Program-made: the position numbers and the translations under genes
Notes under the pieces: model-generated
What the model saw: the letters and a program-made list of their open reading frames with translations, nothing else
Databases searched by the model: none
Told to the model about the DNA's origin: nothing
Assembly (NCBI GenBank): GCA_026991575.1
Contig: JALXBF010000016.1
Coordinates: 62,001 to 84,815 of the forward strand
Origin: Planctomycetota bacterium
Lineage (GTDB): Bacteria > Planctomycetota > Planctomycetia > JALXBF01
Length of the DNA: 22,815 nucleotides
Direction: 5' to 3'
Shown here: one piece after another, positions 10,818 to 22,815 of the stretch
How the letters are laid out: each line of letters opens with the position of its first letter
How positions within the stretch are numbered: the first letter of the stretch is position 1

Positions 10818-12200
10818 CTAAGGCGGTGTCTTGGTTGTCATTTCTCCTTCACACGGCCGTACAACGCCTCGGCACTCGCCGCCGGCTGCGTGCTCCTGAG
10901 CCGTGCCTCCGCAGCGAGGCGTCATCGCCAGCAGCGTGGCGAAGGCCACATGAACCACCATGACCACCCCAAGCCACGCGAACATCCGTCGGGTACCGGC
11001 AAAATGGCCGTCATCCGCCCCCCAGAACACCTTCAACCGCCCTATCACACGCTCCACCGCCGTACGCCCCCGGTACAGCCGCTCGAACTTCTTCGTTGCG
11101 CGAGGCAATGCGGGAAAACGCCGCAAGTCCAGCTCACGCTTCACCCGCACGGTCAGGCCGTACTTCTTGCCCGCATTGCACCGCTGGGCCATCGGACAAC
11201 TCCACCCCTCGTGCATCGCCGGACAACGGTACTTCAGCGTGCCCCGCGACGGCTCGTAACCGATGTACGCCATCCGGTGCCGCACCACCGGCTCGCTTAC
11301 CGTGTCGTAGCAGTACACCGTCCCCGCTTCGTCGTACACAATGTTCTGCCGTCCCTGCAGACCAGGCAGCACTCGCTCTTGCTCCTCCCGCCACAGCGAG
11401 CGTTGCTGAACTACCGCCTTGATCCCGCGCCTCGATAAGAACCCGTGCACCTCGTTCGTGTCCGCCGCTTTGTCATACAGAAGACTCCGAATCCGCTTCC
11501 CCCCAAGATTCTCCTCTGCCTGCTCCACCAATTCCGGCAGCAACTCCGCGTCCGACCGCTTCGTGCTCGTGATCCGGTACGCCACCGATACCTCATGCTG
11601 CACATCAACCAGCAGGTGCAGCTTGAACCCAAACCACTGCATCACGCGGACCACTCGACCCGCCTCGTCCACATACTCCTTCCGACCACCAGCCGGCGCT
11701 GGCAAGCCCTGCGCCTCTTCCAATGCCGCCTGCCGGCGGCTCGCCCTTCGTCGTGCATGGATCCAGGTCGAGTCGCCAGCGACCTGCTCACCAAGATCAT
11801 CCACCGCCTCCGCCAGCCGCTGAACCATCTCATCAAACACCGCCACCAACTCACCAAGGTACGGCTCCTGGCCGAGGCGCTCTAGGAAGCGCGACAGGTT
11901 CCACTTCCGTGGCACTGCCTCCTCCGACTCAATGCCCACCACTTTCCGCAGTGACTCGTTCCGCCGCAACTCCTGCAGGCAGTGCTCAATGCTTTGGTAT
12001 CGCAATGCCGCAGTCAGAGCCAGAATCCGCCACGCCACCTGCACAGGCACATCATTTCGGCCGCGACCGCGCCCTTTCGTCAACGATGCCAGCAACCCCT
12101 CGTCGGGGATGACTTCCAGAAGCTTGCGGATCGTTCGGATCGTAGGGCCGTCCTCCAGCGTCTCCCAGGCAAACAGCCGACGCGTTGTGCTCGGGGCCAT
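10818..12200 (-). mobile_element. DDE transposase of an insertion sequence (IS1182/IS5-like architecture: DUF772-type N-terminus plus DDE domain)
   Basis: GRGRND, LSRFL, VAGDSTWI, WFGFKLHLLVD, LYDKAAD, LYRGRTAVERVIGRLK. ATG at 12200 follows AGGAG. Strongly G/purine-rich coding strand unlike the flanks. Element ends not defined. Confidence 0.88.
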
Positions 12201-12693
12201 CGCGACTCTCCTGATGGCAGTGGTTTTGTCAAGGCAAGGGGGGGCACCTCGGAGATACTCTGCGCAGTAACACATCCCTGCGTCGAGCTCTCCTTGGTCG
12301 GCAGTTTGTGCTTTTTCGTTCCGGATCCGCAGACACGGGCTCAGAACACCACTCAGCCAGCCCTTCCGCGGGGAAAGCCTTCTCGGCACCGGCGCACAGG
12401 GGTGTGCTGAGGCAACAGGTTGCGGGCATCGCTACCGCCCTCGCGCGAGGTGCTGAGCAACGATGCCGGTGAACCGGCTATGATAGAGCGTGTCGTCCCG
12501 TTACCGGCGGATGCCCGAGGCGCTGGCTGCGGCACGCGGCCTGTGGCAGCAGCGGACCTGGCCCACCTTCGGTAGGCGAGTGATTCGTCAAGTGGCTTTC
12601 GGGGCTCGATAGCGATGCTCGGTACCCGATGGCACGTCGAAGTGTCGGAACTCTGCGCACAACCTAGGACCCGGTGATCGCGAGACTGAGCAT

Positions 12694-14232: not shown

Positions 14233-15003
14233 TTACATCTCCCGCTCTGGGCCAGCCGGGCCGTCGGGGTCCTCGTAGAACGCAATCCGGCGGTTGAACG
14301 CATCGTAGACGTACGTCTCACTCCACAGCATATTGCCCTGGCCATCCTTGTGCACCACCGCCGTCAGCCGGTTGCGGTAGTCCCACGTGTACTCCGTTAC
14401 CTCGCCGGTCACCGTGTTCGTCTTGCGAATGAGGTTGCCTTCGTTGTCGTACTCGTAGTCGTTGGTTCCATCCGACAGCAACCGGTTGTCCGCACCGGTC
14501 ACATAGCCCGTCCCGTGCAGGTGCGACTCCGTTCGATTGCCATTGGGCGTGTAGCGGTAGTACTCGATCAGGTTCCCCTGACCATCCCACACGTCCGTCA
14601 ACTGACTCTGCGGGTCGTACGCATACGTGCGCGTCCCTTCCGGGCCGCTGTACGCCACAATCTGACCGGCCGCATCCCAGGTGTAGGCGAAATCCGCCAG
14701 CGGCGTCGCATTGCCCTGCGAATCCACGTAGTCGTGGTCAATCAGCGTCACCCGCGAGGCGGCGTCATAGCTGTAGCTGGTGACAAAGCCCACTGGCGTG
14801 GTCACGGTTACCAGCGTTCCGAGGGCATCGTAGCCGTAGGTGGTCTGGCGGCCGAGCGGATCGATGGTTGCAATGACTTCGTCGGCTGCGTTGTAGAGCG
14901 TCTGCCAGACGGGGTTGTTTGTTGGGTCGGTGTCCTCATCGGGATCGATCGCCTTCACCTGCCGGTGCAGCACGTCGTACTCATAGCGCACCGTGTCGCC
15001 GGA
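14233..15003 (-). pseudogene. Truncated internal fragment of an Rhs/YD-repeat gene
   Basis: YD repeats (YEYDVL, DPLGRQTTYGYD, YEYDNEGN, YTWDYRNRL, YVYDAFNRR). No N-terminus, and it stops before the Rhs-associated core. 14244-14383 is 133/140 identical to 22676-22815. Confidence 0.88.
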
Positions 15004-15475: not shown

Positions 15476-15935
15476 GTAGTTAGTGTTTGTGCCGCATCAC
15501 GGGAAGTGCCTTGGGGAGATCACGCGTGGCACCGTGTGGGGCCCGATCCTGAAGCACGGACGGTGGTGGATCAGACAACTGCTTCAGCAGGGGGCAGGCC
15601 TGAAGTGTCCGAAGACCGCGGCGACGTGCTGCTTCCTTCTGCGGCACGAGCCGTCGTTGTGGGGGTTCGTGTACCACGATGGCGTTGAGCCGACCAACAA
15701 TGCAGCCGAGCCGGCACTGCGGTCACCGGTGATCTGGCGGAAGATCAGCTTCGGCAATGACACCGAATCTGGTGCTCGCTGCACAGAACCGCTGCTGAGC
15801 ATCGCCGAGACGTGCCGACAAATTGGCCGCTGCATCCAAACCTTCCTCACGGAAGCACTGCTTACCTATCGGCACGGAAGGCAGTCTCCACGCCTTCTTC
15901 CCGAACCTGCCACCTGACCCCACTGACTACTTGTA
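15476..15935 (+). mobile_element. IS66-family remnant: C-terminal fragment of the transposase (ORF 15483-15917)
   Basis: SLWGFV..DGVEPTNNAAEPALRSPVIWRKISFG...LLSIAETCRQ is the characteristic IS66 transposase C-terminus (PTNN.AER). Imperfect inverted repeat GTAGTTAGTG (15476-15485) / CACTGACTAC (15921-15930). Confidence 0.82.
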
Positions 15936-16089: not shown

Positions 16090-16719
16090 TTAAGCTCGGT
16101 CTAAGTGTGGGTACGCCGACCGTAGAATGTCCCACCAATACACGAATACTAAGAACTGCGATAGATCGGGGAAGCGAAGATCGCCGTATACAAGCGATCG
16201 CACGAACACCTCGCCCGTGGTGGTGTTCCATAGGACACATCCGCTGTCGGCTACATATTGTCCGATCTGCACCGTCGTATCCCGTACTGGCTCAGACAGA
16301 GACAGCCGCCATGCGACGTGCCCTCGAACGTCGAACCACAAAAGGCCCCTGAACAGGAGTGCTTTCACGTTGTCACCCCGCCAGGACCTCAGCAGAGTGT
16401 CCACCTCGTCCGGACACGAGACGCCGGCGATTAGCCAGCACATGCGTGGCCGTGCCCGACGAGCGTACGATGCGCCGTGCTGAAGAAGGGCAGCGGCCCA
16501 ACGGCGTGCCAGGGACGTTGGGAGATCGGCGCTTAGTGTTGCCGCTCCTCGCGCCAACGTCAGACGCGCAGGCTCCACCTCGAGTGTCTCCGTTCTAAGG
16601 AGCAACATGGTGAAGCCGGGGCCGAGGCGCCGGCGTAGAATGATTGTTTCGCCCAGCATGACCAGAAGCGCGCTACCGAATGGGAAAAGGAGAAGAGCAA
16701 GTGGGAGCAACCATTCCAT
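16090..16719 (-). CDS. Membrane-anchored hypothetical protein, candidate SUKH-like immunity protein (paralog type B)
   Basis: ATG at 16719 follows GGAGCGAGG. N-terminal TM helix, DLPTSLARRWAAALL, and C-terminal IGQYV...VLWNTTTGEVFV...FPDLSQFLVFVY. Confidence 0.7.
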   Translation of the reverse strand: MEWLLPLALLLFPFGSALLVMLGETIILRRRLGPGFTMLLLRTETLEVEPARLTLARGAATLSADLPTSLARRWAAALLQHGASYARRARPRMCWLIAGVSCPDEVDTLLRSWRGDNVKALLFRGLLWFDVRGHVAWRLSLSEPVRDTTVQIGQYVADSGCVLWNTTTGEVFVRSLVYGDLRFPDLSQFLVFVYWWDILRSAYPHLDRA

Positions 16720-16756
16720 TGCCTCGCTCCGACAGTTTTTTGTTGCCGCGTAGTCT

Positions 16757-17611
16757 TCAGTCACCGTGAGTTGACGGTCGTCGGCAATGCCACCAGGTGA
16801 GGTACCAATACAGCAGAGCGTGGGAGGGCGAGCGGAGCGCGAAGCACCGAGCCGAGCGCGCGTGAGTGATAAAGACGCGACCTGTTGATTCTTCCCAGAG
16901 CACATGGCCTGGGAATTCTGTTCCGATGCCGTCGCCTAAGCAGAATACTGGTCCCCGTACAATGGATGATAAGGGCCTAACTTGGTTGTCAACTTCGTAG
17001 GTGACGCGGGTCAAACGGTCTAGGGGCAGTCGGACTGGGACGTGCAGGCGCACGGTTCCGCCTGCGTGCCCGGTGAGCAGCACCCCGTGCGGACTAACGA
17101 GGTCTTCTAGTGGCTTGATCGGCCAGGACGGCCCTGTCGCCGTGTCCTTCGCGCTAGCGAGCGAGCAAATGGGGAGGGTGTCACGGTCGCGTAACGGCCG
17201 CAGCCAGGGTCGGTCGCGGGGGGGCGTCTCAGCATGGTAGTCTGCCTCGAGTAGGGCGTTGACCCAGGCCACTGCGAGTGAATGGGGCAGCAGGTGGCAG
17301 AGTGGCTCTGTCCATCCGGGATGGCTAGGAAGGATTGACAGCACTTCGGTCGGTAGCAAATCGAGCATCAGGGCGGCCTGGAGGCAGCAACCGAGAATCC
17401 AACCGACAGCCACAAGGCCCCAGAGGACCGGGGCGGAGATGGTGTCGTCGAACACGGCGCCCACCAGGGTGGCCAGCAATGCCCCCACGACACCGCCGAA
17501 CATACGTCCGCCTATCACCCCGACGCAACCGGCTAGCCGGACGTAATTCCGCCACTCTCGGAATAGCCCGACGCGCCTCGGCAGAACGACGCATGGCTGG
17601 TGTGTTTCCAT
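16757..17611 (-). CDS. Membrane-anchored hypothetical protein, candidate SUKH-like immunity protein (paralog type A)
   Basis: Strong SD GGAGGTGATC before the ATG at 17611. Two TM helices, LLPHSLAVAWVNALL, and GPVFCLG...VLWEESTGRVF...RSPSHALLYWY. Confidence 0.72.
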   Translation of the reverse strand: METHQPCVVLPRRVGLFREWRNYVRLAGCVGVIGGRMFGGVVGALLATLVGAVFDDTISAPVLWGLVAVGWILGCCLQAALMLDLLPTEVLSILPSHPGWTEPLCHLLPHSLAVAWVNALLEADYHAETPPRDRPWLRPLRDRDTLPICSLASAKDTATGPSWPIKPLEDLVSPHGVLLTGHAGGTVRLHVPVRLPLDRLTRVTYEVDNQVRPLSSIVRGPVFCLGDGIGTEFPGHVLWEESTGRVFITHARSARCFALRSPSHALLYWYLTWWHCRRPSTHGD

Positions 17612-17669
17612 AATGATCACCTCCAGGCTTGGGTTGGGCGGTTGGTGGAAGGTCCGTTGGGGGCCTCCA

Positions 17670-18335
17670 TTAACGCGGTTTGGAAGCGTTCTCGCCCCTC
17701 ATGCAAACACGGTCCGAAGCGGCTTGAGGTTGATCGCCGACCCTATCGCTTCCGCGTAGGCAATGCGTGCACAGGTTCCACACGTACGCGAACAGGAGAA
17801 AATGAGCAAGGCTGAGGAAACGAGCCTCAGCGGGCAACTCCGGGCTGGCTGAGCGGAGAAGTAGTTCACCGTTCGGTAGCTCACTGATGTAAGCGTCTCC
17901 TAGGAGGTAACGGCCTACGACTGCGGGGTACCCATCGCGAGTATGTTGCGAGGGGTCTATTACCCATTGCCGAGTGCCGTCGATACCGAAGAAGGTTAGG
18001 GTTCCTCTACAGATCGCAAGCGAGTTGCATGGGGCGCGTGTTTTTTGCTCTTGCTCGCACGGAGCTGCTGACTCGACCCATGTCCATCTGGGTTTGGGCA
18101 GCGCAGCCTTCGCTTTGCCGTGTGCGATGAGGCAGCGTGCCCAGGCCGAGGCTATGGGGGCGGGAAGGTCGCACACGCGCCGGAGCACGACCAAGGCTAC
18201 GTGGTCAGCGCGCTCGGGCTTCGCCTGGGGTGCGCTGGTGTGTCGGCTACGTAGCCAATGGTACACGCGGTAGTCGACAATGACCGCCCACAACAGGGCG
18301 ACGATCAGGAAGATGCCTAGTGCGGCCAATGTCAT
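17670..18335 (-). CDS. Membrane-anchored hypothetical protein, candidate SUKH-like immunity protein (paralog type B)
   Basis: Start MTLAALGIFLIVALLWAVIV (TM), DLPAPIASAWARCLI, and VVGRY...NGELLLRS...FLSLAHFLLFAY. Confidence 0.7.
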   Translation of the reverse strand: MTLAALGIFLIVALLWAVIVDYRVYHWLRSRHTSAPQAKPERADHVALVVLRRVCDLPAPIASAWARCLIAHGKAKAALPKPRWTWVESAAPCEQEQKTRAPCNSLAICRGTLTFFGIDGTRQWVIDPSQHTRDGYPAVVGRYLLGDAYISELPNGELLLRSASPELPAEARFLSLAHFLLFAYVWNLCTHCLRGSDRVGDQPQAASDRVCMRGENASKPR

Positions 18336-18646
18336 AGCCAAACACTCTCGGTTCGCGGTGTTCTCATGCGACGCAAGGGACAACGCTTCGGCAGAGCCAG
18401 CTCCGTTGGACTTCGGCCCTTCGGTAGGGCAGCACTGCGCCGGTGCCCGTACCATAGCAGATCACGCGCGGCACCTATAGCCGCTGGCAATCCAAGCTGG
18501 GCCTTGACTGGGCGACGGACCAGCGGTTGCTGGTCCGGGCAACCGGCATCCTCGCTCAAGCGGCTCATTGGCCGCGACCACACTGTTTAGCCAGGTGTGT
18601 TCCTTCGCTGGTACAGCCGTCGTCCCGACGCGAGGACTCGGAAGCG

Positions 18647-20491
18647 TTACACCAGTCCAGTGCCCGGGTACGGCACGCACGGCGGCCCAGGCTGTCGCAA
18701 CGCGTGCCGCAGGAACGTACGCCAATCTCTTGCATCGCAAGCTACGTGATTGCACGTGATGGCGGCGTCATCACATGAGATAGACCCACGGACAAGGGTA
18801 GGCAAGGTCTCTAGGTCAAGTGCTTCCCTAGCACAGAACTCGATTGCCTCCTGGCAGATGGAGGGACCGACTGGGTGCCCTGCTGGCGAAACCAACCGAA
18901 CCCCAGCGCCGGCTGCAGCTTCAAGCAGAGCCCGTGGACAGCACTCCAACTCAGCGTCGGGCGCGACCACCCAAGTGTTGCCGCTGAGAACGTCTCCAAG
19001 CCGTGTGACCCGCCTCCATTGGCCGGCATAAGCACGACCGCCGCTGGCGGCCAGCGCTGTCGACACGAGATAGCTCCCTTCTCTGTCGATGAGGATCCTC
19101 ACCGGCTGCTTCGTTCGGCCCGCCAGGCGCCGCGCGGTCTCGGTTGCCCGTTCGCCGGGTCCGCAACCGAACACCGTTACGAGCGGGGCGCAACTGGCCT
19201 GGTTGGGAGACGGCAGGCGAACGGCCGGGGGACGCATGAGCAGCACAGCGTGGATCGCCCGTTGTGTCCAGAGACGATAACGCTCCCGCTCGCAGTAGCA
19301 AACGGTGTAGTCGACGTTAAGTAGCACGGGCGGCATCGGACCACTGGAGCCGGGGACTAGCACCACGGGAAGATCGAGAGCGTGAGCTACTTCAGCCATA
19401 CCCTCCAGCTCCGGGTGATCTCCCACAAGGATAACTACGCTGGCCGCTGCCGACCGCAGAAACTCCCACCAAGCAGTCATCGCAGCTGTGGGCGAAAACG
19501 GGTCGGTCGCCGCCGGGCTCTCTGTTGCTACCTCCGGGTAACCGATTGCCTCGTTCCACAGAGCCCTCTCCGGAAAGCACCGGACATCAAGGCCATCTGC
19601 GCGTAGCATAGCCTGAATCCTGGGAATCCAGAGGAAGGCTTCAGAAGGTGTTCGCACCTCCTCTGGGAAGGCACCGATGACCACTGTCGTATTTCGAGGC
19701 GCACGTAATGTTGGCCTACTATCCGCGCATGAGTAGAGGGCGGGAGGAGGTACTGTGCAATTCCATTTCCTTGCCTGTGCACTGCTCGGACGCGGCATAC
19801 GGCTGCGGCTATTCGGGCGAATGTAATAGCGGCCACTGGTCTTTTCGACATACGCGAAGATGGCGCCACAACGTGCGAACCGCTGCCACAGTTCCCAGTC
19901 CTCGAGGCACCAAAGTTCTTCGTCAAAAAATCCCGAACGGTCGAGCAAACGCCGCGCATGGGCCACGCCAAGTGGCGTCGCAACGTTGCGACCCAGCAAC
20001 CAGGGAATTTCGGAACAAGGATAATACCGCGCCACGGGCACTGGTTCTGCCCCAAGCACATCCACGAAAACATCGTAGCCAAACACAAGCACATCGGCAA
20101 GACACCGCATCTGGCTCACGGTCTCAAGATAGTCTGGATAGAATTCGTCGTCAGCATCCAGATAGACGATCCACTCTCCCCTCGCGTGGTGTAGAGCTAG
20201 GTTTCGCGCTGCAGAGGGGCCTAGATTGACCCGGGTGCGAAATGTGCGGATCCTAGCCTCGTGCCGCGCGGCAGCCTGGACTAGCTCCCAAGTGCTATCA
20301 GAAGAGCAATCATCGACCACGAGCAATTCCCAGTGCTGCCAGGTTTGAGCACGCACAGACCGAATCGCGCGCAATATGGTGTCCGAGTCGTTCCATGCAG
20401 GGGTGACCACAGAAATCATCGGTAGCCGCTGTCTAGTTGCGGCGTCTAAGCCATCGTGCGCGTTAGTCGATCCACTTGCCTTCACGCCCAT
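18647..20491 (-). CDS. Two-domain glycosyltransferase: N-terminal GT2 (GT-A) plus divergent C-terminal GT4-like (GT-B) domain
   Basis: ISVVTPAWN, ELLVVDDCSSD, GPSAARNLAL, YLDADD (DXD) and EDWELWQR. The C-half has a GT-B-like E-X7-E (ECCPRALLE) motif. The start is 1 nt after the upstream stop codon. Confidence 0.85.
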   Translation of the reverse strand: MGVKASGSTNAHDGLDAATRQRLPMISVVTPAWNDSDTILRAIRSVRAQTWQHWELLVVDDCSSDSTWELVQAAARHEARIRTFRTRVNLGPSAARNLALHHARGEWIVYLDADDEFYPDYLETVSQMRCLADVLVFGYDVFVDVLGAEPVPVARYYPCSEIPWLLGRNVATPLGVAHARRLLDRSGFFDEELWCLEDWELWQRFARCGAIFAYVEKTSGRYYIRPNSRSRMPRPSSAQARKWNCTVPPPALYSCADSRPTLRAPRNTTVVIGAFPEEVRTPSEAFLWIPRIQAMLRADGLDVRCFPERALWNEAIGYPEVATESPAATDPFSPTAAMTAWWEFLRSAAASVVILVGDHPELEGMAEVAHALDLPVVLVPGSSGPMPPVLLNVDYTVCYCERERYRLWTQRAIHAVLLMRPPAVRLPSPNQASCAPLVTVFGCGPGERATETARRLAGRTKQPVRILIDREGSYLVSTALAASGGRAYAGQWRRVTRLGDVLSGNTWVVAPDAELECCPRALLEAAAGAGVRLVSPAGHPVGPSICQEAIEFCAREALDLETLPTLVRGSISCDDAAITCNHVACDARDWRTFLRHALRQPGPPCVPYPGTGLV

Positions 20492-20492
20492 G

Positions 20493-21341
20493 TCACTCGG
20501 TCAGTGTTTCAGGCATTGCACGGAGCCACTGAAAATAGATATCTAATAGCATGTGGTGTATAGAGCGCCAGGGCTTAGCAGCACCGATATCGATGTCGTA
20601 AGCGCGCAGCGTAATCGGATCATATAGGACCCTTCCTGAATTCTCAACTAGGCACACCAGCGGGCCACTAACGATATCGCCGAGGACAGAATCGACTCCA
20701 CCAACCCGAACGTGCACCTTGGAAAGCCGCTTTCTCCAGTCTTTGTCGGGAACCCGGACAGGCCGGTGAAGGGTCCAGGGGAACTCTGCCCCTTGGAGCT
20801 CCAGGCCCCAGGGGCCCGCAAGCTGACGGAGGACGGCCGACGGCCATGGCTCGAAGGCGGGGATGCCGGACTCAAAGGCGCAGCTCACGGGGTGGGTGAT
20901 GGGAAGTGCCCAGGGCGTGTCGGCATCCGCGATACGGCGGCGAGAAGCGAGTAGGAGTTCCGCGACCCACCGGTGGCACAGCGAGGTCGGTGTATGGCGG
21001 ACAAGAAGGGTATCTACGTGAGCTACATCGCAGGGCGACACAGCGGGGGTGAGCGCAGGCCGGTCGGCGCGTTCTGCGTCGTGCGGAGAAGTTCGGAAGA
21101 GGCGTCTAAGGTCGGGGCGAGTGAGGACGGACACGAGCACGTATAGCCACGCTGGGGATCCTATTACGATACCAAGAAGGCCGAAGAACGCAAGGGAAGC
21201 CGGAGAAAGCCGTTCCAGACTCTGACCGAACAGGTGCAGAAGAAGCAAAACGACGACGAAGCGAATTGGCAATGTCCACAAAGCGTACCTGAGCTTTTCC
21301 AAGAACCTGCTGAGCGACATAGCTCCTGACCGAATACTCAT
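20493..21341 (-). CDS. Membrane-anchored hypothetical protein directly downstream of the Rhs toxin; candidate cognate immunity protein (paralog type A)
   Basis: Two TM helices, HTPTSLCHRWVAELL, LHRPVRVP, and GPLVCL...VLYDPITLRAY...RSIHHMLLDIY. Alternative start at 21320. Confidence 0.72.
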   Translation of the reverse strand: MSIRSGAMSLSRFLEKLRYALWTLPIRFVVVLLLLHLFGQSLERLSPASLAFFGLLGIVIGSPAWLYVLVSVLTRPDLRRLFRTSPHDAERADRPALTPAVSPCDVAHVDTLLVRHTPTSLCHRWVAELLLASRRRIADADTPWALPITHPVSCAFESGIPAFEPWPSAVLRQLAGPWGLELQGAEFPWTLHRPVRVPDKDWRKRLSKVHVRVGGVDSVLGDIVSGPLVCLVENSGRVLYDPITLRAYDIDIGAAKPWRSIHHMLLDIYFQWLRAMPETLTE

Positions 21342-21416: not shown

Positions 21417-22815
21417 TCATCTTCTAAAAATACGCGTAGGCGAGTCGTCACTCCGATCGCCAAAGTAGAGCCACAGCGCAGACTTCGCACCGTACGCTCC
21501 GACTCGCATGGGCAGCTGCCAGAATAGCACTCGATCGAACCACCAGGCCCTGCGGTCCAAAGTCAGGTGCTTCGATTTCGCAACGGCAGACAGGTTGCAG
21601 CGTGCGTTAGCCAATTTCGGACAAACGATGCCAGGAAAGTGCACCCTGTCTGATCTCCATCCGAGCGACTTTGCAACTCGGGTGTCGTAGAGCCACCGCA
21701 GTCGAGATGGGACGGCTTTCTTTGGCGTACCCCGCAAAGGTATTCCATGATGGACGTGAATGTTGCTGTCCGTAACGCGCAGTTTGCTCCTGGCGAGGCG
21801 CCGAAGCCTTCGTGCCTGGCGTGGATCCGCAGCTGACTTGATAATGTACTTACCTGCCCATTTGCCAGCAAGCTTCCAGGCTGCTAGCGCGGCGTCTGAC
21901 ACAAGGCCTGTATACCAGCCTGCCTTGTAAGCGATGCTGTCGTCGTTAACATAGCGGTTGCCGCCATATGACTCACGGAACATGGACGTGAGCCCAGCCG
22001 TTAAATAGTCACCGAGGCCAGCCCCGTAATCGGTGAGTACCGAAAGAGCCCTGTCAAGAAGCGTGCCCCTGGCTATGAGATACGAGACAACACGGTCCAC
22101 AAAGCGATCGCCATTCAGCCCCCACGGATCCGCGATCACGATGGGACTGTTGGATACAAAGCGGTACAGAGCAACGTCTCCGGATCGGAAGCCAAGGGGA
22201 TCGGTAAGGGTGAACCTGCCCAATGCAGGGTCGTAGTAGCGCGCGCGGTAGTAGTAGAGCCCCGTGACGGGATCGTACTCTCGGCTGCCGAAACCCAGAC
22301 GATGCTGTTCCCGAGGCAGGTCGTCCTGGGAGGGCCTGCCAAAGCTATCGAACGTGAACCGGCGTAAGACACTGCCGTCTTGGGCAGCCCACCGGCGGAC
22401 CGTGCCGGCAAGATCTCGCAATGCAAAGCTAACAGCGCTGGTGGACTCTACCATAGCGAGCAGCGAATCTACCAGGTGCGTGTACAGTCGCCGGGCGGTT
22501 AGTTGCGGAACGATGCCGTCGGAAGTGTCCGGGTCCGTGAAGTCGGCAATCGGGTTGGCCGCGAAGATCGCGCTGGCGTAGATGCCATCGACATACGGGG
22601 CGAGCCCGCCCTGGGCGATCTGCTCGGCCGTCGGCGGCTGGGCCAGGTCATGCAGCACAAACGTGAACCGCTCCGGCTCTGGGCCGGTCGGGCCGTCGGG
22701 GTCCTCGTAGAAGGCGATCCGGCGGTTGAACGCATCGTAGACGTACGTCTCAGTCCACAGCACATTGCCCTGGCCATCCTTGTGCACCACCGACGTCAGC
22801 CGGTTGCGGTAGTCC
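21417..22815 (-). CDS. Rhs repeat protein, 3' part (runs off the window), with Rhs-associated core and C-terminal putative HNH/EndoVII-fold toxin domain
   Basis: FDSFGR, FGSREYDPVTGLYYYRARYYDPALGRF...DPLGF..GD..LYRFVSNSPIVIADPWGL (PxxxxDPxG cleavage motif). The tip contains HVHHGIP...ANARCNL...H. Confidence 0.92.
   Translation of the reverse strand, partial: DYRNRLTSVVHKDGQGNVLWTETYVYDAFNRRIAFYEDPDGPTGPEPERFTFVLHDLAQPPTAEQIAQGGLAPYVDGIYASAIFAANPIADFTDPDTSDGIVPQLTARRLYTHLVDSLLAMVESTSAVSFALRDLAGTVRRWAAQDGSVLRRFTFDSFGRPSQDDLPREQHRLGFGSREYDPVTGLYYYRARYYDPALGRFTLTDPLGFRSGDVALYRFVSNSPIVIADPWGLNGDRFVDRVVSYLIARGTLLDRALSVLTDYGAGLGDYLTAGLTSMFRESYGGNRYVNDDSIAYKAGWYTGLVSDAALAAWKLAGKWAGKYIIKSAADPRQARRLRRLARSKLRVTDSNIHVHHGIPLRGTPKKAVPSRLRWLYDTRVAKSLGWRSDRVHFPGIVCPKLANARCNLSAVAKSKHLTLDRRAWWFDRVLFWQLPMRVGAYGAKSALWLYFGDRSDDSPTRIFRR

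What the first reader, a model, noticed from the sequence alone, without database searches (positions are those of the whole stretch)
16090..21341. Array of four highly diverged, membrane-anchored paralogs with SUKH/SMI1-like C-termini downstream of the Rhs toxin
Seen: four hypothetical ORFs share one architecture, with 1-2 N-terminal TM helices followed by a common helix motif (HTPTSLCHRWVAELL / DLPAPIASAWARCLI / LLPHSLAVAWVNALL / DLPTSLARRWAAALL) and a downstream Trp. Their C-termini end alike: VLYDPITLRAY..RSIHHMLLDIY, ISELPNGELLL..LSLAHFLLFAY, VLWEESTGRVF..RSPSHALLYWY, VLWNTTTGEVF..PDLSQFLVFVY. They form two subtypes: A (20493-21341, 16757-17611; both LHxPVRxP...IVxGPxxCL) and B (17670-18335, 16090-16719), in transcription order A-(GT)-B-A-B. 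Established: SUKH (SMI1/KNR4) proteins are common immunity proteins of nuclease polymorphic toxins, with an N-terminal LP..Y helix and a 'tGeV...sl.efL' C-terminus; they are usually soluble. Inference: this may be a poorly described membrane-tethered immunity family stockpiled as a poly-immunity array, possibly acting as A/B pairs.
Basis: partly seen in the sequence, partly recalled or inferred. Interest (0 to 1): 0.8.

Follow-up and report, generated by a model that had tools for sequence, protein, structure and literature searches.

The report
Membrane-tethered SUKH-like Rhs immunity gene array
Four diverged copies of a very rare membrane-anchored protein sit behind an Rhs toxin gene and most likely protect the cell against that toxin and its variants; they look like a membrane-tethered, highly diverged form of the well-known SUKH immunity proteins.

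Summary
Four intact minus-strand genes (A1 20493-21341, B1 17670-18335, A2 16757-17611, B2 16090-16719) are true paralogs. BLASTP gives A1~A2 1e-10, B1~B2 5e-14 and A2~B2 3e-5, and the A-type and B-type profiles match at 95% probability.

B types have one N-terminal TM helix and A types have two. By the positive-inside rule both place the C-terminal domain in the cytoplasm.

The family is tiny: 7 true members among 1.84 billion representative proteins. The only outside copy with visible context, in a sister genus, also lies behind an Rhs core end carrying a homologous, frameshifted toxin domain.

A SUKH-like fold is likely but not proven.
- Language-model neighbours of B2 are all SUKH clusters.
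- Pfam and profile-profile tests are not significant (P 0.02-0.18).

I found no evidence for obligate A/B pairs. The toxin domain is an orphan: very basic, with an HH...N...H motif, so a nuclease activity is only inferred.

Verdict: probably a new, membrane-tethered variant of SUKH-type poly-immunity. Interest is moderate.

The parts
21417..22814 (-). 3' part of an Rhs gene, cut by the contig end. The Rhs-associated core is at about 22116-22349, a DPWGL motif follows, and then a 230-aa variable tip (21420-22109).
   Evidence: TIGR03696 Rhs_assc_core E 4.7e-19 at residues 156-233. RHS_repeat E 1.9e-4. Translation. The window is the last 22.8 kb of contig C16.
21420..21827 (-). Candidate toxin domain of the tip (136 aa). 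It is very basic and has an HH...N...NL..V..S.H motif conserved with the G001 copy.
   Evidence: Net charge +22 over the last 135 aa. 29% identity to L005:2544-2909(-), with H26 H27 P30 L31 N74 N78 L79 H87 invariant. No Pfam, NCBIfam or PDB sequence match.
20493..21341 (-). A1: A-type family member (282 aa) with 2 TM helices. It starts 75 nt after the tip's stop codon and is the presumed cognate immunity gene.
18647..20491 (-). A 614-aa gene: an N-terminal GT2 glycosyltransferase domain plus about 360 aa with no known family. It starts 1 nt after the A1 stop codon. Its role in the locus is unknown.
   Evidence: PF00535 E 2.2e-32 at residues 27-124. The C-terminal 367 aa have no Pfam match. In 40 relatives only residues ~2-250, the GT2 part, match.
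17670..18335 (-). B1: B-type family member (221 aa) with 1 N-terminal TM helix.
16757..17611 (-). A2: A-type family member (284 aa) with 2 TM helices.
16090..16719 (-). B2: B-type family member (209 aa) with 1 N-terminal TM helix. This is the copy that was modelled: pLDDT 83.7, and SUKH structures are its best structural matches.
15483..15917 (+). IS66-family transposase fragment bounding the array.
   Evidence: PF03050 E 7e-7, covering only profile positions 207-283 of 284.
14233..14991 (-). Truncated Rhs repeat fragment. Its last ~145 nt are a near-copy of the window's Rhs at 22670-22814; it then diverges and stops. It is a relic of rearrangement among the many Rhs copies of this genome.
   Evidence: RHS_repeat E 1.2e-33. 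DNA alignment. At least 15 near-identical (88-97%) copies of this core piece lie on other contigs.

Best explanation
The four genes encode immunity proteins of a very small, highly diverged, SUKH-like family. Their toxin-binding domain is held on the cytoplasmic face of the inner membrane by one (B type) or two (A type) N-terminal TM helices.

A1 starts 75 nt after the toxin tip and is most likely the cognate 'self' immunity protein for the Rhs C-terminal toxin. That toxin is a novel, strongly basic domain with an HH...N...H motif, possibly an HNH-like nuclease. B1, A2 and B2 are most likely supernumerary immunity genes against variant toxins of the same type made by competing strains.

Neutralisation would work by direct binding of the toxin domain. 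The membrane tether would place the binder where an imported toxin emerges.

What is shown: paralogy, the membrane anchors (by hydropathy), gene order, linkage to the same toxin type in a second genome, and the rarity of the family. What is inferred: the immunity function, binding, the C-in topology, the SUKH fold, and the nuclease activity.
For: 1. The paralogy is real. BLASTP gives 1e-10, 5e-14 and 3e-5, and the A and B profiles match at 95% probability, E 4.1e-8.

2. A1 is in the canonical immunity position, 75 nt after the tip's stop codon. All genes share one strand and most gaps are short.

3. The one relative whose DNA context I could see supports the linkage. P0002 in G001 (same family, other genus) lies 280-425 nt downstream of an Rhs_assc_core ORF (TIGR03696 E 1e-8). 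That ORF's tip is homologous to the window's tip through both halves; the second half is in another reading frame.

4. Toxin domain and immunity family have the same narrow distribution.
- The family profile found G000 and G001 convincingly among 61 genomes; 3 other genomes gave only marginal hits of E 0.005-0.009. It found G000 only among 401 genomes of the phylum.
- The exhaustive search of 1.84e9 representatives gave 8 hits, 7 of them true.
- The toxin domain gave only noise (E > 7e-4) in 400 genomes of the class.
- In the own genome, about 20 Rhs core ends carry different tips, and only this tip is followed by the family.

5. Both anchor types predict a cytoplasmic C-terminal domain. The five one-TM proteins have 0 K/R before the TM segment and 2-3 after it. 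The two-TM proteins have 2-3 K/R before TM1.

6. SUKH-like fold.
- The AF2 model of B2 has pLDDT 83.7 and pTM 0.71. Its elements run: four helices, a beta-hairpin (126-129, 135-139), a four-strand meander (149-183) and a C-terminal helix. This fits the published SUKH core (PMC3113570, passage).
- The unbiased VIA-align search of 48,161 chains ranks 3d5p (SMI1/KNR4) 1st, 2prv (YobK) 2nd and 2icg 3rd. Knr4 5j1b is 23rd, Syd 3ffv 29th and 2pag 32nd.
- So 5 of the 6 PDB sequence groups that match a SMI1_KNR4 profile are in the top 32.
- The ESM Atlas neighbours of B2 are SUKH clusters, top score 0.91.
- P0005 has a sub-threshold SUKH-4 Pfam match, E 0.027.

7. Tandem arrays of diverged SUKH paralogs next to toxins are a described theme, with the adjacent copy read as self-immunity and the extra copies as non-self immunity (PMC3113570, passages).
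Against: - No SUKH Pfam model reaches threshold in any of the 8 members.
- hhalign against SMI1_KNR4 and SUKH-4 alignments gives P 0.019-0.18 and probability of at most 2.4%. The SUKH-1 versus SUKH-4 control gives 92%.
- Foldseek found no SUKH structure near the top: best E 6.7e-3, TM 0.18, and the hits are unrelated proteins.
- The A2 domain gave no SUKH signal in the Atlas (0.82, bPH_11), and its model had pLDDT 44.
- The linkage to a toxin rests on only two loci, and the G001 toxin is frameshifted. The genomic context of P0005, P0006 and P0007 could not be obtained.
- The soluble domains are near neutral (net charge -1 to +5), not acidic as many nuclease immunity proteins are.
- A 614-aa GT2-domain gene sits inside the array, translationally close to A1, and is unexplained.
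- Topology rests on hydropathy and the positive-inside rule only.
Confidence: 0.55

Rival explanations
1. They are immunity proteins for the Rhs tip, but of a new fold unrelated to SUKH. The SUKH resemblance is a common alpha+beta arrangement, or a bias of the predictor.
For: - All sequence tests against SUKH families are non-significant.
- Foldseek finds nothing.
- The model rests on an 8-sequence alignment.
Against: SUKH was named in advance, and it then came out top in two searches that did not presuppose it.
- Ranks 1-3 of 48,161 chains are SUKH structures, and 5 of the 6 SMI1_KNR4 sequence groups in the PDB are in the top 32.
- The 10 best family-bearing Atlas hits share one family or clan.

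In addition, the only Pfam families under E 0.1 for any member include SUKH-4, and the order of secondary-structure elements fits the SUKH core.
Confidence: 0.17
2. They are not immunity proteins. They are inner-membrane accessory proteins of the Rhs system, for example Syd-like factors acting at the Sec translocon or adaptors for toxin export, or unrelated membrane proteins carried along in a mobile island.
For: - Syd, a SUKH protein, binds SecY, and the authors of PMC3113570 speculate that SUKH proteins could guide pro-toxins to export (passage).
- The array is flanked by IS remnants.
- A glycosyltransferase-domain gene sits inside it.
- The domains are not acidic.
Against: - The genes lie downstream of the toxin tip, where immunity genes sit.
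- Four diverged paralogs (17-36% identity) fit diversifying selection on a binder, not a conserved accessory factor.
- The family occurs with only one of about 20 Rhs tips in this genome. An export factor would be expected with all of them or encoded once elsewhere.
- The family co-occurs with the homologous tip in G001.
Confidence: 0.13
3. One reading: the proteins act as obligate A/B heterodimeric pairs, with one two-TM and one one-TM subunit per toxin.
For: The order A-(GT)-B-A-B alternates the subtypes. A2 and B2 are 37 nt apart. PMC3113570 mentions, but does not favour, the idea that linked paralogs form one complex (passage).
Against: - G001 has one family gene behind its tip, followed by a transposase.
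- A1 and B1 are separated by a 614-aa gene and 311 nt.
- B1 and A2 are as close to each other (58 nt) as the supposed pairs are.
- No test of A-B binding was run.
Confidence: 0.08

Closest known systems
SUKH-1 (SMI1/KNR4, Pfam PF09346) immunity proteins of polymorphic toxins, e.g. B. subtilis YobK (PDB 2prv), Lin2918 (2icg), BF1740 (3d5p)
   Same: - These are the best structural matches of the B2 model (ranks 1-3 of 48,161).
- The order of elements is the same: an LP-helix, a hairpin, a 4-strand meander and a C-terminal helix.
- Both are encoded next to polymorphic toxin tips and occur as tandem arrays of diverged paralogs.
   Different: - No significant sequence or profile match.
- The family carries one or two N-terminal TM helices. 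PMC3482391 describes nearly all known immunity proteins as cytoplasmic globular proteins (passage).
- No PF09346 match at E <= 1e-8 was found in the six-frame search of this genome or of G001, although 17 of the 31 genomes searched (G000 included) have one.
SUKH-4 (Pfam PF14435) immunity proteins
   Same: This is the only SUKH model with any HMMER signal: P0005 residues 149-207, E 0.027. It also gives the best hhalign P value for the whole family, 0.019, with a colinear alignment at low stringency.
   Different: The score of 15 bits is well below the 25.5-bit cut-off. hhalign probability is 2.4%, against 92% between SUKH-1 and SUKH-4.
Syd (SUKH-2; PDB 3ffv), the SecY-interacting protein of E. 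coli
   Different: As far as I recall, Syd is a soluble protein that reaches the membrane by binding SecY, not through a TM helix of its own; no call tested this. No sequence similarity to Syd was tested here.
Two-TM immunity proteins Imm17 and Imm-CdiI
   Same: They are membrane-embedded immunity proteins of polymorphic toxin systems, and like the A type they have two TM helices (PMC3482391, passages).
   Different: They are described as consisting of the two TM helices only, and are proposed to block uptake. The proteins here carry a 150-190-aa globular C-terminal domain, predicted to be cytoplasmic. Sequence relatedness to Imm17 or CdiI was covered only by the general Pfam scan, which found nothing.

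Membership tests
SUKH superfamily (SMI1_KNR4 PF09346, SUKH-3 PF14433, SUKH-4 PF14435, SUKH_5 PF14567, SUKH_6 PF14568) | A match to a SUKH Pfam model above its gathering score | tested here: not met
   0 of 8 members reach any cut-off. The best is P0005 against SUKH-4: E 0.027, 15.0 bits, cut-off 25.5.
SUKH superfamily | Significant profile-profile similarity to SUKH alignments | tested here: not met
   hhalign against 27- and 28-sequence SMI1_KNR4 alignments gives P 0.024-0.27. Against a 15-sequence SUKH-4 alignment it gives P 0.019-0.18. Probability is at most 2.4% throughout. The positive control, SUKH-1 against SUKH-4, gives 92% and E 5.4e-7.
SUKH superfamily | Core fold of four helices, a beta-hairpin and a four-strand beta-meander (PMC3113570) | tested here: inconclusive
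SUKH superfamily | Genes encoded next to polymorphic toxin genes, often as tandem arrays of diverged paralogs | tested here: met
   The array lies behind an Rhs tip here. A single copy lies behind a homologous Rhs tip in G001. That is 2 of 2 loci with visible context; the context of the other 3 members is unknown.
SUKH superfamily | Binds and neutralises the adjacent toxin | not testable with these tools
   This needs co-expression and binding assays.
Rhs/YD-repeat polymorphic toxin (for the upstream gene) | RHS repeats, an Rhs-associated core ending in a DPxGL motif, then a variable C-terminal tip | tested here: met
   RHS_repeat. TIGR03696 E 4.7e-19. DPWGL followed by a 230-aa tip. About 20 core ends with different tips in the genome. 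The N-terminal part of the gene is missing because the contig ends.
HNH/EndoVII-fold toxin nucleases (AHH/LHH/WHH-like), for the tip's C-terminal domain | An HH or DH dipeptide plus downstream metal-ligand residues, and a match to a family model | tested here: inconclusive
   HH, N, N and H are conserved between the only two known copies, and the domain has net charge +22. There is no Pfam, NCBIfam or PDB sequence match and no structural model. The reading of the motif follows the description in PMC3113570 (passage).

The most novel reading that the evidence does not exclude
These proteins define a new, sixth-order SUKH-like group in which the toxin-binding domain is permanently tethered to the cytoplasmic face of the inner membrane. 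Two different anchors, a reverse signal-anchor helix and a helical hairpin, converge on the same topology. Immunity would then work by catching the Rhs toxin domain at its point of entry, or by occupying its translocation route, rather than by titration in the bulk cytoplasm. Their partner is a previously undescribed, strongly basic HH-N-H toxin domain confined to one planctomycete family.
Probability: 0.3. Interest if true: 0.6.

Novelty: new variant of a known kind. Interest (0 to 1): 0.45.

Why it matters
Immunity proteins against cytoplasm-acting polymorphic toxins are almost always soluble (PMC3482391, passage). A SUKH-like binder fixed to the inner face of the membrane would suggest that where the toxin is intercepted matters. 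It would also give a handle on how Rhs tips cross the inner membrane in planctomycetes, which carry very large Rhs arsenals: about 20 tips in this 5-Mb genome.

The case also adds an orphan toxin domain and an orphan immunity family, with 7 true members among 1.84 billion representative proteins. Both escape all current family models.

If the immunity reading is wrong, the finding is only a small lineage-specific membrane protein family.

Tried and rejected
- **Complex prediction.** Complex prediction on the tip's C-terminal domain (2-row alignment) plus the A1 soluble domain (8 rows) returned 'no answer', score 0.02. It says nothing either way.
- **A2 model.** AF2 of the A2 domain with a 5-row alignment gave pLDDT 44 and was unusable.
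- **Foldseek.** Against the PDB the best E was 6.7e-3, with GtfB and polo-box hits at TM 0.15-0.18. I rejected these as noise.
- **Family profile against PDB sequences.** Nothing under E 0.08.
- **Word-based homolog searches.** They found only the window's own proteins and P0002.
- **The search for related loci.** The B-type and A-type alignments then found no relative in genome contigs or metagenome contigs. So the context of P0005, P0006 and P0007 stays unknown.
- **The listing of cluster members.** Not available.
- **P0008.** This 1129-aa WD40 protein (E 1.1e-4, six stretches) matches the 'ILWDLTTGE' repeat only. I rejected it as chance.
- **Weak genome hits.** In G002, G044 and G053 (E 0.005-0.009) the hits are short or carry stop codons. 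I did not follow them up.
- **Toxin domain.**
  - No relatives in 400 genomes of the class.
  - No relatives among longer proteins in the word-based search.
  - No PDB sequence match.
  - No Pfam or NCBIfam match.
- **Tip N-terminal half as a membrane segment.** Rejected: its maximum hydropathy of 1.22 is below the threshold of 1.6.
- **First motif scan for Rhs core ends.** The regular expression was too strict and found 1 hit. I replaced it with tblastn.
- This translation was out of frame, my slip, and I did not use it.
- **Literature.**
  - Two full-text searches found no paper describing a TM-anchored SUKH immunity protein: SUKH + immunity protein + transmembrane gave 41 papers, 15 listed, and a 5-term search was mostly off-topic.
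  - Term searches inside PMC3113570 and PMC3482391 turned up none either.
  - This does not show that none is in print.
- **Earlier notes of this scan.** Nothing near the site and nothing on these words.
Full report
**Observation**

The window's last 6.7 kb carries, all on the minus strand:
- the 3' end of an Rhs gene (21417-22814, cut by the contig end)
- A1 (20493-21341, 282 aa)
- a 614-aa gene with an N-terminal GT2 domain (18647-20491)
- B1 (17670-18335, 221 aa)
- A2 (16757-17611, 284 aa)
- B2 (16090-16719, 209 aa)

The gaps between them are 75, 1, 311, 58 and 37 nt.

The four proteins are homologous beyond chance. BLASTP gives A1~A2 1e-10, B1~B2 5e-14 and A2~B2 3e-5. A1 and B1 do not match directly, but the A-type and B-type profiles match at 95% probability, E 4.1e-8, over 129 columns. 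No Pfam or NCBIfam family matches any of the four.

**Membrane anchors and topology**

A 19-residue Kyte-Doolittle scan finds one hydrophobic segment at the very N-terminus of B1, B2 and the relatives P0002, P0005 and P0006. Each has no Lys or Arg before the segment and 2-3 within the 15 residues after it. A1 and A2 have two segments, with 2-3 Lys/Arg before the first.

By the positive-inside rule (established knowledge, not a test), the one-TM proteins are N-out/C-in and the two-TM hairpins are N-in/C-in. Both architectures therefore put the 150-190-aa C-terminal domain in the cytoplasm. This is inference from hydropathy alone.

**How rare the family is**

- The own genome has only these four copies.
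- A profile search of 60 relatives found one convincing relative, in G001 (same family, another genus; E 1.9e-6), plus three marginal hits at E 0.005-0.009 that I did not follow.
- 400 further genomes across the phylum gave none.
- An exhaustive HMMER search of 1.84 billion representative proteins returned 8 hits: the window's A1, A2 and B1, P0002 from G001, P0005 (63% identical to B2), P0006 (B type, 49%), P0007 (A2-like, 37%), and a WD40 protein that I reject as chance.
- I could not obtain the genomic context of P0005, P0006 and P0007.

**Link to the toxin**

The upstream ORF has RHS repeats and the Rhs-associated core (TIGR03696, E 4.7e-19). The core ends in DPWGL and is followed by a 230-aa tip.

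In G001, P0002 lies downstream of an ORF with the same core domain (TIGR03696, E 1e-8). That ORF's tip aligns with the first ~100 residues of the window's tip. The rest of the window's tip aligns, in another reading frame, with the DNA just downstream (28% over 94 aa). So the G001 toxin is the same type, but frameshifted. A transposase follows P0002.

In the window's own genome, tblastn finds about 20 Rhs core ends. Most lie on short contigs, and each carries a different tip and different downstream ORFs. Only the C16 tip is followed by this family.

A family and a toxin domain that are both extremely rare, and that occur together in the only two loci with visible context, are the main argument for a toxin-immunity relation. 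Two loci is a small number.

**The toxin domain**

The last 136 aa of the tip have no match in:
- Pfam or NCBIfam
- PDB sequences
- 400 genomes of the class
- the word-based search of longer proteins

The domain is very basic, with net charge +22 over 135 aa. With the G001 copy it shares an invariant HH..PL, then N...NL..V..S.H, then DR...W.

An HH dipeptide followed by Asn and His metal ligands is how derived HNH nucleases (AHH, LHH, WHH) are described in PMC3113570 (passage). An HNH-like nuclease is therefore a reasonable guess. It is only a guess, and I give it about 0.35.

The tip's N-terminal half is not hydrophobic enough to be a TM segment (maximum 1.22).

**Is the domain SUKH-like?**

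Sequence tests fail.
- hmmscan of all 8 members at E <= 10 gives only one SUKH hit: P0005 against SUKH-4, E 0.027 and 15 bits against a cut-off of 25.5.
- hhalign against a SMI1_KNR4 alignment built from relatives' genomes gives P 0.024-0.27.
- hhalign against a SUKH-4 alignment gives P 0.019-0.18, while the SUKH-1 versus SUKH-4 control reaches 92% probability.
- The best local segments do fall at colinear positions: the LP-helix, and the 'G..c...G.V..wd' hairpin.

Structure and language-model evidence point the other way.
- With an 8-row alignment, AF2 models B2 at pLDDT 83.7 and pTM 0.71.
- After the TM helix and a linker, the model has helices 68-85 (the LP-helix), 103-110, 115-124 and 186-202. 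It has a hairpin at 126-129/135-139 and a four-strand meander at 149-183. This is the published SUKH core: four helices, a hairpin and a 4-strand meander (PMC3113570, passage).
- Of the 50 rows listed, 13 cover the soluble domain, and 6 of those 13 are SUKH proteins. The other 37 rows are single-helix matches to the TM segment.
- A SMI1_KNR4 profile finds only six sequence groups in the PDB, and five of them are in that top 32.
- The ESM Atlas search with B2 returns SUKH clusters as its nearest neighbours (0.91, 0.90, 0.89...).

Caveats:
- Z stays below 5, and the tool warns that such values can be chance.
- Foldseek itself finds nothing.
- Atlas scores near 0.9 occur for 4-10% of shuffled proteins.
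- The A2 domain gives neither signal.

SUKH was the hypothesis set before the searches, and it came out first in two independent-method searches. I therefore put a SUKH-like fold at about 0.7 for the B type. It extends to the A type through the A-B homology.

**Mechanism**

The best reading (confidence 0.55) has five parts.
- The Rhs toxin is delivered to neighbouring cells.
- A1, the adjacent gene, protects the producer by binding the toxin domain.
- B1, A2 and B2 are extra immunity genes against variant toxins. PMC3113570 proposes exactly this for tandem arrays of up to six diverged SUKH paralogs (passages).
- The unusual element is the membrane tether. PMC3482391 describes nearly all immunity proteins as cytoplasmic and globular, with the two-TM Imm17 and Imm-CdiI as exceptions thought to block uptake (passages).
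- A cytoplasm-facing, membrane-fixed binder could intercept the toxin as it emerges from the inner membrane. That step is speculation.

The A/B-pair idea has no support. G001 has a single copy, and A1 is separated from B1 by the GT gene and 311 nt.

**What remains unexplained**

- The GT2-domain gene starts 1 nt after A1's stop codon. Only its N-terminal ~250 aa have relatives in 40 related genomes, and its C-terminal ~360 aa match no family.
- The array ends at an IS66 transposase fragment (15483-15917). Beyond it lies a truncated Rhs fragment (14233-14991) whose 3' end copies the window's Rhs at 22670-22814 and then diverges. This suggests rearrangement among the many Rhs copies.

**Verdict**

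This is most likely a new, membrane-tethered and extremely diverged variant of SUKH-type poly-immunity, paired with an orphan Rhs toxin domain. All functional claims are computational inference.

Earlier notes of this scan call the genome a planctomycete. I did not check that.

Noticed in passing
window 18647-20491 (-): A 614-aa gene with an N-terminal GT2 glycosyltransferase domain and about 360 C-terminal residues that match no family. It starts 1 nt after A1's stop codon, inside the immunity array. In 40 related genomes only the GT2 part has relatives.
   Followed up: partly
window 14233-14991 (-) and 15483-15917 (+): A truncated Rhs repeat fragment whose last ~145 nt nearly copy the window's Rhs at 22670-22814 and then diverge into a stop codon. 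An IS66 transposase fragment lies between it and B2. Both are likely scars of recombination among Rhs copies.
   Followed up: partly
own genome, contigs C17, C21, C48, C61, C72, C80, C84-C86, C92, C121, C125, C140, C159, C179, C185 (two), C189: About 20 Rhs core ends in a 5-Mb genome, each with a different C-terminal tip. The conserved core piece is 88-97% identical between copies, and most contigs break there. Several tips are followed at once by very large ORFs (477-884 aa) rather than small immunity genes.
   Followed up: partly
L005 2541-3469 (-) = G001:C323: In the sister genus, the Rhs tip homologous to the window's tip is split by a frameshift between its N-terminal half and the HH...N...H domain. 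It lies next to an ISAs1-like DDE transposase. It is either a decaying orphan toxin module or an assembly error.
   Followed up: partly
window 10818-12389 (-): An intact-looking 523-aa DDE transposase (DDE_Tnp_1 plus DUF772) with strongly negative GC skew (-0.29), lying between sugar-metabolism genes and the amidohydrolase gene.
   Followed up: no
own genome and G001, whole: No canonical SMI1_KNR4 (PF09346) match at E <= 1e-8 in this genome or its sister genus. By contrast, 17 of the 31 genomes searched (own genome included) have one, and one of them has 18.
   Followed up: partly
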